DNA of 64,000 bases, from the NCBI RefSeq assembly GCF_033153115.1, contig NW_026889803.1, positions 2,914,001-2,978,000 on the forward strand, given 5' to 3'. Below are positions 38,722-43,401 of this stretch, piece by piece; position 1 is the stretch's first letter; every line of letters begins with the position of its first letter. The position numbers and the translations under genes are program-made. Source of the DNA: Saccostrea echinata (lineage: Eukaryota). A model generated the notes under the pieces. The model had not been told where the DNA came from and searched no databases. It saw only the letters and a list, made by a program, of their open reading frames with translations.

Positions 38722-39747
38722 ATGGAGAAACTTTTTTTATTAATAACTTCTGGAGTATTTATGTATTGCTGTATCATATGTCCATTGCTATGCCCTCCAA
38801 AGACCGAGGCTGACTGCAATGAAAAACTAAACATTTCAAGATGTCCAAACAATCATTCAAATTACGAATCCCCTTACCGAATCAAAGATAAATTCGAAAT
38901 CATACGAGTAGCGAAGAGAATAGTTAAATCTGATGGCGTAGTAATACTCACTTTTATGAACAAAGCATTTAAACCATTCCTAGCTAATTGGATGTGCCAC
39001 ACCAAACAAATGGTAAGAGAATCTCAGATTTTACTCGTGATGACTGAGACAGAAGAGTATGGTGATTTTCGATCTGTATATCCTAAAGTAAACATCGTTT
39101 ACTTGAAAAGCTTCCAAGGAATCAGCGAAAATCAGAGATACTGTACAGCAGGATTTATGCGTATTGGTATTTACAGAACAACAGTTGTTAACTGGATATT
39201 ACAGGAAGGTGTACCAATATTTGTTTTTGAACTGGACGCACTATGGTTACAAAATCCACTGCCATTCATAACAACTAATACAGAATATGATATAACAATT
39301 ATACCGACGTATGAAAAATCATTCGAAGCCGCAATTGGCTTTTACTATATGACAGCAAATAAGCGAATGCAACAATTCTGGCAGGAATTAACGCGTCGTC
39401 TTCATGACTTGAGTAAGACCTTTTCCTGTTTAAAAAACAAAGAAAGAGTACGGGGAAGGGATAACGATCAGATGGTGCTCTATGGTCTTATTCAAGAACA
39501 TTACGAAAATCTTATCATCTTCTTTTTACCAACAAATAAATTTCTTGACGGGAAATGGTATCGAAAACCAGAAACACATTTGTTGAGAGAAGCTCTCATA
39601 TTAAATTTTAATTTTGTGATTGGAATTGATGAAAAAATTATCCGTGCAAGACGTTTTGGGCACTGGTTTGTTGCAAATGACAATTTGACATGTCTGCCTG
39701 ATAAATATGAACGTTTTCAAATGTCTTTGAATGAATACCTGAAATAA
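38722..39747 (+). CDS. Nucleotide-diphospho-sugar transferase (PF03407/GT77-like, RGXT/MGP4-like), predicted type II membrane protein, 341 aa
   Basis: N-terminal hydrophobic anchor; family-like motifs VILTFMNKAFKPFLANW, ILQEGVPIFVFELDALWLQNPLP, IGFYYM, NDQMVL, NFVIGIDEKIIRARRFGHWF; single coding exon preceded by an acceptor (TTTTCAG ending 38700). Confidence 0.85.
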   Translation: MEKLFLLITSGVFMYCCIICPLLCPPKTEADCNEKLNISRCPNNHSNYESPYRIKDKFEIIRVAKRIVKSDGVVILTFMNKAFKPFLANWMCHTKQMVRESQILLVMTETEEYGDFRSVYPKVNIVYLKSFQGISENQRYCTAGFMRIGIYRTTVVNWILQEGVPIFVFELDALWLQNPLPFITTNTEYDITIIPTYEKSFEAAIGFYYMTANKRMQQFWQELTRRLHDLSKTFSCLKNKERVRGRDNDQMVLYGLIQEHYENLIIFFLPTNKFLDGKWYRKPETHLLREALILNFNFVIGIDEKIIRARRFGHWFVANDNLTCLPDKYERFQMSLNEYLK

Positions 39748-40574
39748 CATATGGATTTGAAAGTTTTCCGTGAACCCACCGTGATAGCCACATAAATTTA
39801 TTTGCTTTTCTGTTTTTTGGCAGATCACAAATGGTGAATTTGGGTTTATATATTAATTTTGGCAGATAAAATTAACGTGAATCCTAGCTTATCCAATTAA
39901 TTCATTTTATATGCATTGAATTGTATATGTAAAATGTGCTTGATCAGCATTAGTGAAAAATTTACGCTCAAGTATAAGAAGGAAACAAGGTTTTTATAAA
40001 TGTGTACAAATGTGTTATTTTATTTGGCATTAAATCACACACATCTCAGGTATCACATGCATTACTTTCTCGATCATAAATGCAAAAGCAAGATTGGGAG
40101 AATGAAATATAATTGAATAATTTTTATTTTGGTGAATCTTTAAATCGCCAAAGTAACATCCACGCAAATAAACTAAACAGTGTTAAAAAATTTGGGTTGT
40201 TTTTTTTAAATAGGCTCAGTGAATCAAAGTATCTATTTTTTTTCACTTTAGTTTATCTAAAGTAAATGAAAATTCCGTTTTGTATTCACTCACTATAGTA
40301 AAACTAAATGAAAAACAAATACATGTATAATATAATTTTGTTTTGATAATATTAAGTTCAAGTCTCAGATCTGCATATAAAAGTTCAATTAAAAGTTTAT
40401 GAAAAAGATCTGCAAACATTACAAGCTGTGCAGATGCAGCTCAAGATTTTTTTTGTCCCCTACCAGAAAAAAATGTGACCATAGATTCCTCTCTATCTGT
40501 ATGCCTGTCCGTCTTTCTTCAAGTTATTCTGAGCTTCATTGAACTTGCAGAAGCTCCTATATATATTTACTAAT

Positions 40575-40890
40575 ATTATACTATCATGTCAATTAGTTGA
40601 ATCTGATTCGTTGAGAAATATTTGTTAAAAAACACTATTGCCCGCTGAATGATGAAGCCACGCCCTCCAGCATAGCAACAGTCAACATTGCTTGACGACG
40701 GGTGTCATTCCAAAAAAATAGCGACTGCGCAGAATTTATGCGCGCAAGGTTCACTGTTATATGTATTTGTATAAAACATTCAGTATACAATAAAAAATAT
40801 TGCATGTAGTTGAGTGTAACATTGAAAATTTTCACCCTTCGAAAACCATTGTCAACCTCTCCTGCGTCTCAGTTGACAATGGCAATATTT
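40575..40890. mobile_element. Second copy of the Crypton-like element at 14411 (hairpin half-deleted)
   Basis: High similarity over ~300 bp starting AATTAGTTGAATCTGATTCG. Confidence 0.7.
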
Positions 40891-42142
40891 ATATAGTAGC
40901 TGATTTTTTGTATGTGAGTTTATTTTGTTGACTGACAGATCAAATTTACATTTCGTACAGCAGGCCTCAAAACTTTTGCCAACTTTGTTTTTAATGTAGC
41001 TAACGTGTCAACTTTTTTTACTTATTAAATTTTTAGACCCAACATTGAATTTATTTTAGCATTGAGTTTTTATAGTTATAGAAGATAGTGTTACTGCTTT
41101 TGACTATGAATATAATGATATACGGGGTATTACATTAGTGTTTATTAAACATACCATTCCACCTTTTTCATTATAATTTTTAGACCCAGGATTGAATAAG
41201 GTTTAGCGTTACGTGGTTATAAAGACAGCGTCACAGTTTGAGACTATGAATAAACCTGAATTGATAAACATTTTGTTGTTTCAGACGGGCTTATCATGTT
41301 CCCCATTGGCGTATTTTATTACGGATATGTGTCTTTGAATAAATTTACAATCCCCAAAAAAGACTAATCTTTGGGGGCAAAATTTGAAGTTTAGAAAAGG
41401 TTTTAAATTTCATAGTCATCATGCAAACAGGCTTGATTTTGATGTCCAGGAAAATGAGAGCTTTTTAAAAGTGTGATAAATTATGCATTGAATTATTACA
41501 TTGCTCATAATTACAACTACGTGCACAGACAAATTTAGTAACACGCGGTAACATTAAAAAAGATAACATTTTAAAAATCATTTTACTTCTATTTTACATT
41601 GTTTTAAAATTCATTCCTCGCTGAATAAGAAACTATTTAAGCTAGAAAGCATCACTATTGTAATTTCTATAGCGAGGAATATTGTGGGGTGTTTTACTTT
41701 GCCACCAATAAAGGCAAAAATGTAGTTCCTATTCTTTCTACATGGTTATTTCCTGATCTCAATCTTTAGTTTTGGACCTTTTTAAGTAGCAAATCACTGT
41801 TCTTTAACTTTAACCAGGTGAATGATAATTTTATATGTAGAGTTTGATTAGAAAAAAAATAATCTTCAGTTTTAATCAAAACTGAAAAAAGTGCAAATTT
41901 GAATCAAAGGAATTATTTTTAAGATTATATACAAGGCTTAGAAATTATACAATAAATTGTAACATTATTTTAAGCCTAGGATTAAAGCCAGGTTCTTATT
42001 ACAGAGAATAAAACAATCAACTATCATGTTTTTATATTGCAATCTAAGGCTTGTTTTAAAAAATTCAAGCTCTAACATTAGGTTAGCTTAAAATACATAA
42101 AAAGAACTAATTTTTGCAGTAAAGAATTTAATTTATTTTGTA

Positions 42143-43401
42143 TCAATTCGGCAACCAGAGCACATCAAATCCCCAACTTGCATTTTTTGCAACGTCCAAT
42201 GGAATCACGGAAAGGTTGACAGAATGTGGCTTAAATTTTCTACTTGTCATATATTCGATTATTTTGTTTGCTGTTTTTTGTCCTCTGTGAAACTCCCATT
42301 CCATGATAAATGCAACAACATTTATATTAGAAAAAAACTTTGATGATTTTTCCAGGGCTTTGGCTTCAAATCCTTCAATGTCCATTTTCAATATAACATT
42401 TTGAAAATACTTTATTTCTGGCAGGTCTAATAAGTCATCCATTGTTATGGTATTCACTTTCCCATATATTCCTTTTGCACGACCAAGTTTTAATTTTTTT
42501 ATATAATCTGCATCGACATCAACGAATGTTCCTCCCATATTATTTCTTTCAACACCAAGATTGACTATGGCGTGTTCATTTGATATAGCATTATGAACTA
42601 AAATGATATTTTTGTGAAGATTACCCTTCATTGCTGATGCACAGATATGTTGAATATTGCGATCCAAAGCTTCAACAGCTAACACCTTTCTCCCAGCTTT
42701 AGCTACACTTAGTGTGTACACACCTGTAAAATAATAAAGTAGTCGATTGACAGAGTTGATTTACTTCTACTAAATAAAAATTGATTTTTATGTACTTTAC
42801 ACTGTACGTATTTTTGAATACGCTTTACTCGTTCGTTACACATAGTATAGGAGTTTTTTGATTCGTAAAGCAAATTCTTGAAAATGTCTTCTTGTTATAT
42901 TTTTTTGTCTCGGCTTAATAAAATAAAATTTGTGTAAAATAATATGCTTCTCTTACCAATATTGGCACCGATGTCAATTAGTTGTAATAATGGGTCCTCT
43001 TTCATCATTTTAAAGATTATACTAGATTTTTCAGATTCGAAAGAACCTCTTTCTTTTAAGGAAGACGAAACCCACATATCTTTTGATCTTTCATACACAA
43101 ATATCGGCGTGATTCCAAACTCAGTTTTCAGGAAGGCTTTTGGAAATTTAAAACATGCAGCACACACATCAAAATTTTTAATCCATTTATTTTCTTTAAA
43201 AGTGTAAATGGATTTCACTAACTTCTGTCTTCTTTCAGGACATTGAATAAATTCCTTATTTCGCAGATTGCTTGCATTTATCTCGTGAAGGGGTATATAA
43301 TCCATGAAAACATTTTCATTATTTTCTTTGTGGTTAAAAAAGTAAAGATAGCTGCAAACAACGATTACACCCACGGTCAAATGAAATTTGAATCGATTCA
43401 T
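42143..43401 (-). CDS. FkbM-family SAM-dependent methyltransferase (Methyltransf_21), predicted type II membrane protein; 2 coding exons (43401-42957, 42723-42143), 341 aa
   Basis: A phase-1 GTAAGA...TTTACAG intron joins LIDIGANI-G-VYTL (SAM motif I); also VLAVEA, NAIS, NMGG, TITMDDL, LKMDIEGFEAKAL, IMEW; N-terminal TM segment FHLTVGVIVVCSYLYFF. Confidence 0.9.

What the first reader, a model, noticed from the sequence alone, without database searches (positions are those of the whole stretch)
38722..43401. Linked GT77-like glycosyltransferase and FkbM methyltransferase: candidate mollusc methylated-glycan module
Seen: two intact, convergent genes 2.4 kb apart, isolated among TE debris, both with a short N-terminus, TM anchor, stem and catalytic domain (Golgi type II layout). 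Known: plant GT77 RGXT enzymes add xylose to fucose in RG-II, where that xylose is 2-O-methylated; the FkbM family includes rhizobial NoeI, a fucose 2-O-methyltransferase; mollusc glycans carry O-methylated sugars, and to my knowledge the methyltransferases responsible are uncharacterised. Inference: a two-gene add-sugar-then-methylate unit for mucus, shell or immune glycans. Adjacency alone does not prove shared function.
Basis: partly seen in the sequence, partly recalled or inferred. Interest (0 to 1): 0.7.

Follow-up and report, generated by a model that had tools for sequence, protein, structure and literature searches.

The report
Oyster sugar-methylating enzyme candidate beside glycosyltransferase
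Two real, separately transcribed oyster genes, one likely adding a sugar and one likely adding a methyl group to sugars in the Golgi, sit side by side; the pairing looks like an inherited one-off rather than a dedicated module, but the methyltransferase belongs to a family of at least 29 oyster genes that likely includes the still unidentified enzymes that methylate oyster blood-group-like glycans.

Summary
Observation confirmed with corrections. Both genes are intact, convergent, 2,395 bp apart: a PF03407 (GT77-like) glycosyltransferase and a PF05050 (FkbM) methyltransferase, each with an N-terminal hydrophobic anchor. The methyltransferase has a 233-nt intron (spliced in 4 of 4 runs). The glycosyltransferase has an upstream in-frame micro-exon 8.4 kb away (one contig). 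Homologue names place the window in a Saccostrea oyster. The two-gene module is weakly supported. For it: the Ostrea edulis orthologues have consecutive accessions on one chromosome. Against it: the genome holds at least 29 FkbM loci and 3 GT77-like genes; 0 of 16 other FkbM places and 0 of 2 other GT77 genes have such a partner; 0 of 28 long relatives are GT fusions; published oyster N-glycans carry methyl on GalNAc, fucose and mannose, with no methyl-xylose listed, so the plant RG-II analogy fails. The better lead is the family: an expanded set of Golgi-type FkbM proteins as candidate glycan O-methyltransferases. This paralogue was found only in Saccostrea and Ostrea, and Ostrea makes 4-O-methyl-fucose where Pacific oyster makes 3-O-methyl-fucose. 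No activity is shown.

The parts
30258..30281 (+). Upstream coding micro-exon of the GT gene (ATG at 30258; exon begins after an AG at 30255, so a further upstream exon is likely)
   Evidence: One contig of run X4 joins here to 38701 with 26 letters on the short side; in frame, adds 15 residues
30282..38700 (+). 8,419-nt GT..AG intron of the GT gene, with repeats
38701..39747 (+). Main coding exon of the GT77-like glycosyltransferase (341-aa form starts at 38722); GT-A fold; ExD motif E170-L-D172, NDQ 248-250, DGKWY 276-280, NFNF 295-298
   Evidence: PF03407 E 8e-15; model pLDDT 79.6 matches GT-A enzymes, best Z 13.5, rmsd 3.8, 214 aligned; motifs; RNA-type contigs cover it
38731..38790 (+). 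Predicted N-terminal membrane anchor of the GT (residues about 4-23)
   Evidence: hydropathy, helix 2-23 in the model
39748..42142 (.). 2,395-nt gap between the stop codons; transcripts do not meet (GT contigs end by 40049, FkbM contigs begin at 42115)
42143..42723 (-). FkbM methyltransferase exon 2 (VEAL 165, HNAI 192, KMDIEGFE 261, MEWEFH 289)
   Evidence: PF05050, TIGR01444; motifs conserved in 22 aligned relatives
42724..42956 (-). 233-nt GT..AG intron inside the SAM-binding motif I
   Evidence: skipped in 4 of 4 runs; same donor position in the closest paralogue
42957..43401 (-). FkbM exon 1: start codon, predicted membrane anchor (residues about 4-22), stem with conserved cysteines, start of catalytic domain (DIGANIG 143)
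   Evidence: model pLDDT 88.2, best Foldseek hit is the bacterial FkbM structure 2py6, E 2.5e-6

Best explanation
These are two intact, separately transcribed oyster genes that likely encode membrane-anchored Golgi enzymes: an FkbM protein predicted to move a methyl group from S-adenosylmethionine onto a sugar hydroxyl of glycoproteins or glycolipids, and a GT77-like enzyme predicted to add a terminal sugar; they have likely been neighbours since the Saccostrea-Ostrea ancestor without forming a dedicated add-then-methylate unit. Shown: gene structures, separate transcripts, domain families, folds, conserved catalytic motifs, family sizes, tree positions. Inferred: type II topology and Golgi location; glycan substrate (most likely terminal GalNAc, fucose or mannose, the methylated sugars of oyster N-glycans); linkage in Ostrea (from accession order). 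The many paralogues would supply the many sugar- and position-specific methylations, each acting on whatever acceptor the Golgi presents regardless of gene address.
For: Intact frames and motifs; class I SAM-methyltransferase and GT-A folds; separate non-overlapping RNA-type contigs. At least 29 FkbM loci in 19 places (32 domain matches = 28 genes, plus one); 24 of 25 assessed have an N-terminal hydrophobic stretch, as do 97 of 122 newly listed representatives of 300 aa or more, which points to a secretory-pathway substrate. 0 of 16 other FkbM places examined (of 18) have a GT77 match or a Pfam-recognised GT among 115 ORFs of 125 aa or more within about 20 kb; 0 of 2 other GT77-like genes have FkbM within 20 kb; 0 of 28 long FkbM relatives carry a GT domain. 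Oyster N-glycans carry at least five methyl-sugar types (PMC10301044, sections 2.2 and 3 read). RGXT-related (31) and Star/Methyltransf_21 (16) families are both over-represented in an annelid alongside sulfotransferases (PMC12403961, section read).
Against: No enzyme assay, localisation or tissue co-expression exists here. Fold matches are generic: RNA, protein and small-molecule methyltransferases tie with FkbM at Z 11-12.4. The Ostrea orthologues appear still linked, which a functional pair would also predict. The flank scan misses GTs split into exons under 125 aa. A second candidate family, PF13383, has at least 4 matches in this genome. A cleavable signal peptide was not excluded.
Confidence: 0.5

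Rival explanations
1. Dedicated two-gene module: the GT adds a terminal sugar and the linked FkbM methylates that sugar or its neighbour (for example a methylated A-antigen-like cap), and linkage is kept for co-regulation or co-inheritance.
For: O. edulis orthologues LOC130052224 (XP_056012608/612/617) and LOC130052231 (XP_056012622) have consecutive accessions on the same 112,480,954-bp record; both genes fall in Saccostrea+Ostrea clades (100/100 and 97/97); both are covered by contigs in the same runs; adjacency by chance about 0.5% for these two families; C. elegans has clusters of putative GTs and methyltransferases (PMC7614267, passage).
Against: No repeat of the pairing at 16 FkbM places or 2 GT77 loci, no fusion in 28 long relatives; convergent orientation gives no shared promoter and the GT's upstream exon is 13 kb from the FkbM start; O. 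edulis has three more co-orthologous GTs; neighbours in related oysters are often retained passively (general knowledge; background rate not measured).
Confidence: 0.2
2. The FkbM protein acts on something other than glycans: a small molecule or lipid in the secretory pathway, or it works as a Star-like trafficking factor rather than an enzyme.
For: FkbM itself methylates a polyketide precursor and Drosophila Star is a chaperone-like type II protein (both recalled; PMC12403961 lists PROTEIN STAR under Methyltransf_21). One relative is modelled as a P450-FkbM fusion and a P450 exon lies about 10 kb from one oyster FkbM gene. Fold hits do not specify a substrate.
Against: SAM-binding and FkbM acidic motifs are invariant or nearly so in 22 bivalve sequences, against a dead enzyme; family size and membrane anchors fit the variety of glycan methylation.
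Confidence: 0.22
3. Plant RG-II-like chemistry: the GT puts xylose in alpha-1,3 linkage on fucose and the FkbM makes 2-O-methyl-xylose.
For: [quoted passage not shown]
Against: The name is by similarity (another relative is named arabinofuranosyltransferase RAY1-like); GT77 also holds the alpha-3-galactosyltransferase AgtA (PMC8724618, passage); oyster N-glycan xylose sits on core mannose and no methyl-xylose is listed (PMC10301044). O-glycans, glycolipids and mucus were not covered by that study.
Confidence: 0.05
4. Recent horizontal transfer or contamination from an alga or bacterium.
For: GT-plus-FkbM clusters are typical of bacteria and of Ostreococcus chromosome 19 (PMC5082852, passage); most oyster paralogues have uninterrupted reading frames.
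Against: On a 69.7-Mb contig among oyster repeats and histone genes; spliceosomal introns in both genes; relatives follow bivalve phylogeny; the best unrelated metagenome matches reach only 22-38% identity; look-alike clusters are mostly animal. An ancient transfer at the base of either family was not tested.
Confidence: 0.03

Closest known systems
FkbM family methyltransferases (PF05050, TIGR01444; structure 2py6; rhizobial NoeI recalled as a Nod-factor fucose 2-O-methyltransferase)
   Same: Profile matches above cut-off, DIGANIG / acidic strand-2 end / KMDIEG motifs, class I fold.
   Different: N-terminal anchor and cysteine-containing stem; 16% identity to 2py6; no substrate known; NoeI was not compared directly.
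Animal type II Methyltransf_21 proteins (PANTHER 'Protein Star', PTHR34009)
   Same: Same Pfam domain in animals; expanded in an annelid (PMC12403961). Type II layout of Star is recalled.
   Different: Membership of PTHR34009 not tested; this bivalve subfamily keeps a full catalytic signature.
GT77 / PF03407: plant RGXT xylosyltransferases and arabinosyltransferases (recalled), Dictyostelium AgtA (PMC8724618)
   Same: PF03407 above cut-off, GT-A fold closest to retaining GT8/GT6/GT24-type structures, anchor plus stem.
   Different: ExD instead of DxD in 17 of 18 aligned sequences; Asn where GT77 enzymes are recalled to have His; oyster-specific long-branch clade; donor and acceptor unknown.
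C. elegans glycosylation gene clusters (C13A2, K06H6, T15D6) and Ostreococcus chromosome 19
   Same: Putative GTs next to putative methyltransferases, proposed but not shown to act in sequence (PMC7614267, PMC5082852; passages).
   Different: Here only two genes, convergent, and the pairing is not repeated in the genome.

Membership tests
FkbM family (PF05050/TIGR01444) | Profile score above curated cut-off | tested here: met
   46.4 bits vs 22.7; 42.5 vs 37.7 on exon 2
FkbM family (PF05050/TIGR01444) | Class I SAM-dependent fold with glycine-rich motif I and acidic residue ending strand 2 | tested here: met
   DIGANIG 143, VEAL 165; best Foldseek hit 2py6; Z 11.5, rmsd 3.1, 167 aligned
Glycan O-methyltransferase (NoeI-like) | Methyl transfer to a sugar hydroxyl | not testable with these tools
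   needs an assay
GT77 / PF03407 | PF03407 score above cut-off | tested here: met
   55.8 bits vs 22
GT77 / PF03407 | GT-A fold | tested here: met
   Z 13.5 to 6mw8, 13.1 to glycogenin; Foldseek E 1e-6
GT77 / PF03407 | Metal-binding DxD motif and C-terminal His (His recalled) | tested here: inconclusive
   E170-x-D172 and N295 instead; conserved across bivalve members; no GT77 reference sequence was aligned
RGXT xylosyltransferases | UDP-xylose donor, fucose acceptor, methyl-xylose product in the organism | tested here: inconclusive
   no assay; methyl-xylose not among the monosaccharides listed for oyster N-glycans (PMC10301044), other glycan classes not examined
Golgi type II membrane enzymes | Single N-terminal anchor, short basic tail, stem, luminal domain | tested here: met
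   by hydropathy and model only
Golgi type II membrane enzymes | Golgi residence, uncleaved anchor | not testable with these tools
   no signal-peptide predictor or localisation data
Functional gene cluster (add-then-methylate module) | Pairing recurs at paralogous loci or as fusion | tested here: not met
   0 of 16 FkbM places, 0 of 2 GT77 loci, 0 of 28 long relatives
Functional gene cluster (add-then-methylate module) | Linkage conserved across species | tested here: inconclusive
   likely in O. edulis by accession order; placed Magallana and Pinctada relatives unlinked but they are not strict orthologues of the pair; no foreign genome DNA was available
Functional gene cluster (add-then-methylate module) | Co-expression across tissues | not testable with these tools
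   only assembled contigs of 5 runs, tissues not given

The most novel reading that the evidence does not exclude
The expanded Golgi-type FkbM family supplies the long-sought animal glycan O-methyltransferases, and this Saccostrea/Ostrea-specific paralogue is the enzyme behind a lineage-specific mark such as the 4-O-methyl-fucose of flat-oyster blood-group-A glycans, working with its neighbour, an oyster-specific GT77-like enzyme that may build the A-type cap in place of a GT6 enzyme. The pair would then be a small 'blood-group locus' that tunes norovirus, lectin and parasite binding. Probability given is for this full version; the family-level claim alone I put near 0.6.
Probability: 0.1. Interest if true: 0.85.

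Novelty: new member of a known kind. Interest (0 to 1): 0.45.

Why it matters
O-methylated sugars are a hallmark of mollusc and nematode glycans and absent from vertebrates (PMC6272458, passage), and in oysters they sit on the blood-group-A-like glycans that noroviruses bind, with species-specific positions (PMC10301044). The enzymes are described as unidentified (PMC7614267) and my ten literature searches found no paper assigning them. A defined set of at least 29 mostly single-exon candidates, with one paralogue whose distribution parallels a species-specific methyl mark, makes the question directly testable by expression and assay. The two-gene adjacency itself adds little unless substrate coupling is shown.

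Tried and rejected
Cross-species synteny from DNA: no relative genomes are held; a metagenome scan with the FkbM alignment found no relative and one with a mussel-like protein returned only distant matches of 22-38% identity. PDB sequence searches with both alignments found no meaningful solved relative; no GT77 or sugar-methylating FkbM structure appeared among fold hits, which does not exclude them. GT6 (ABO-type) search in the genome found 0 matches but nothing rang in controls and exons are searched separately, so absence is not shown. No run was on record as RNA; the laid contigs behave as RNA because they skip the intron; depths cannot rank expression. Cluster look-ups gave no names for several large oyster clusters (P0005, P0013, P0184), so a Crassostrea or Magallana copy of the pair cannot be excluded. 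Two FkbM places (C81, C47) were not scanned for neighbours. Earlier findings of this scan: nothing returned. Three papers were not held (eastern-oyster glycome PMC3750142, methylated-glycan defence PMC4103367, methylation review PMC3795332); supplements were not read, and supplemental Fig. S15 of PMC7614267 may name FkbM or GT77 genes in the nematode clusters. No complex prediction was run because binding is not claimed. Recent horizontal transfer and pseudogene status were rejected.
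Full report
Observation. The window holds a 341-codon ORF at 38722-39747 (+) matching PF03407 and, on the minus strand, a two-exon gene at 43401-42957 and 42723-42143 that gives a 341-aa PF05050/TIGR01444 protein. The stops are 2,395 bp apart. Contigs of four public runs skip the 233-nt intron in 4 of 4 cases, and the two genes lie on separate contigs that end about 2 kb apart. 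One contig links the GT to an in-frame micro-exon at 30258-30281, adding a 15-residue basic tail; this rests on one contig with 26 letters on the short side. A database entry identical to the spliced methyltransferase is named Saccostrea echinata, so this is an oyster.

Anatomy. AlphaFold models (pLDDT 88.2 and 79.6) show an N-terminal helix, a poorly ordered stem and a catalytic domain. The methyltransferase has a class I fold with the bacterial FkbM structure as best Foldseek hit, though many unrelated methyltransferases tie with it by Z. Its motifs are conserved in 22 bivalve sequences. The GT has a GT-A fold nearest retaining enzymes such as glycogenin and Gat1, with ExD in place of DxD. 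Golgi location and type II orientation are inferred from this layout.

Families. The genome has 3 GT77-like genes by four searches and at least 29 FkbM loci in 19 places; both counts are lower bounds. Of 25 FkbM genes assessed, 24 have an N-terminal hydrophobic stretch. Three genes carry two or three FkbM domains in one frame. In trees the window's FkbM groups with O. edulis LOC130052224 (100/100), apart from a sister lineage found in Saccostrea, Ostrea, Crassostrea and Magallana; no Crassostrea or Magallana sequence among the 31 rows fell in the window's clade. The GT belongs to an oyster-only clade on a long branch, with four O. edulis co-orthologues.

Is the linkage meaningful? For: the O. 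edulis best hits of both genes lie on the same 112.5-Mb record with accessions XP_056012608/612/617 and XP_056012622. This is indirect, since genes with older accessions could lie between. Adjacency of these two families by chance is about 0.5%, but some GT beside some FkbM is expected about once per genome (assumed gene numbers). Against: 0 of 2 other GT77-like genes and 0 of 16 other FkbM places examined have a partner within about 20 kb (115 ORFs scanned, small exons would be missed); 0 of 28 long FkbM relatives are fused to a GT; placed Magallana FkbM (61-Mb records) and GTs (37-40 and 57-Mb records) are apart, as are the Pinctada ones, though these are not strict orthologues of the pair. 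The simplest reading is an adjacency inherited from the Saccostrea-Ostrea ancestor.

Literature. Oyster N-glycans carry 3-O-methyl-GalNAc, 3- and 4-O-methyl-mannose and methyl-fucose, at C3 in Pacific oyster and C4 in O. edulis; no methyl-xylose is listed, xylose sits on core mannose, and the word methyltransferase does not occur (PMC10301044: abstract, sections 2.2 and 3, passages). C. elegans glycan methyltransferases are stated to be unidentified, and clusters of putative GTs with putative methyltransferases are noted without biochemical proof (PMC7614267, passages). An FkbM gene near sugar genes in Ostreococcus was suggested to methylate glycans (PMC5082852, passages). RGXT-related and Star/Methyltransf_21 families are both over-represented in Alvinella (PMC12403961, one section). 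GT77 includes an alpha-3-galactosyltransferase (PMC8724618, passage). Reviews PMC6272458, PMC8699351 and PMC6994554 were seen as passages. Ten searches listed no paper that assigns FkbM proteins to mollusc glycan methylation; subscription papers are not covered. Functions of NoeI, RGXT, FkbM and Star are recalled.

Mechanism. Most likely (0.5) both are Golgi enzymes acting in the general glycan pathway: the FkbM protein methylates a hydroxyl of a terminal GalNAc, fucose or mannose using SAM, and the GT adds a terminal sugar with retention of configuration, without exclusive coupling. Rivals are a dedicated module (0.2), a non-glycan substrate or Star-like role (0.22), RG-II-like methyl-xylose chemistry (0.05) and recent transfer (0.03). 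A second methyltransferase family, PF13383, with at least 4 matches, could share or hold the glycan role.

Verdict. The genes are real and already carry automatic domain labels; the module claim is not established. The value lies in the family-level lead and in one sharp, cheap test: whether this Saccostrea/Ostrea paralogue makes 4-O-methyl-fucose. That match of distributions rests on incomplete sampling and is one of many possible among 29 paralogues. Interest 0.45; new member of a known kind.

Noticed in passing
window 52274-64000 and L063, L064: Tandem histone array with all five histone types in a unit of about 9,853 bp (H4 to H4), continuing at least 20 kb past the window.
   Followed up: partly
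window 59414-59822 and L063 5440-5841: The H2A gene of the repeat unit is frameshifted near its start, and the same break appears in another unit: a homogenised pseudogene or an assembly error copied across collapsed repeats.
   Followed up: partly
window 53325-53651 and 63179-63505: A 108-codon ORF repeated in each histone unit; it resembles the N-terminus of a mariner transposase (recalled), no Pfam match at 1e-3.
   Followed up: partly
window 38030-38111: One contig of run X3 shows at least 14 clustered A-to-G differences in the GT intron, as expected of ADAR hyper-editing; no DNA of the same animal to confirm.
   Followed up: no
window 42143-43401: RNA-type contigs differ from the assembly by about 2% in the FkbM gene, with an 18-nt in-frame insertion just after the start codon in 3 of 4 runs; of 20 listed substitutions classed, 9 are silent and 11 change residues, none in catalytic motifs. 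The GT contigs differ far less. Possibly a highly polymorphic locus.
   Followed up: partly
G000 C12:2.42 Mb, 20.77 Mb, 20.79 Mb: Single reading frames with two or three tandem FkbM domains behind one anchor; relatives with up to five domains exist.
   Followed up: no
P0274; L151:9500-9940: A P450-FkbM fusion protein model among relatives, and a P450 exon about 10 kb from the FkbM gene at C54:7.08 Mb; may be joined neighbours.
   Followed up: no
window 42724-42956: The FkbM intron is shared with the closest oyster paralogue, while mussel-like relatives are called as single 338-aa frames on metagenome DNA, suggesting intron gain in oysters.
   Followed up: partly
window 1233-5501 and L061: Exons of a long coiled-coil gene on the + strand, unidentified.
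   Followed up: no
G000 whole genome: No GT6 (ABO-type) match although related oysters make A-antigen glycans; search inconclusive.
   Followed up: partly
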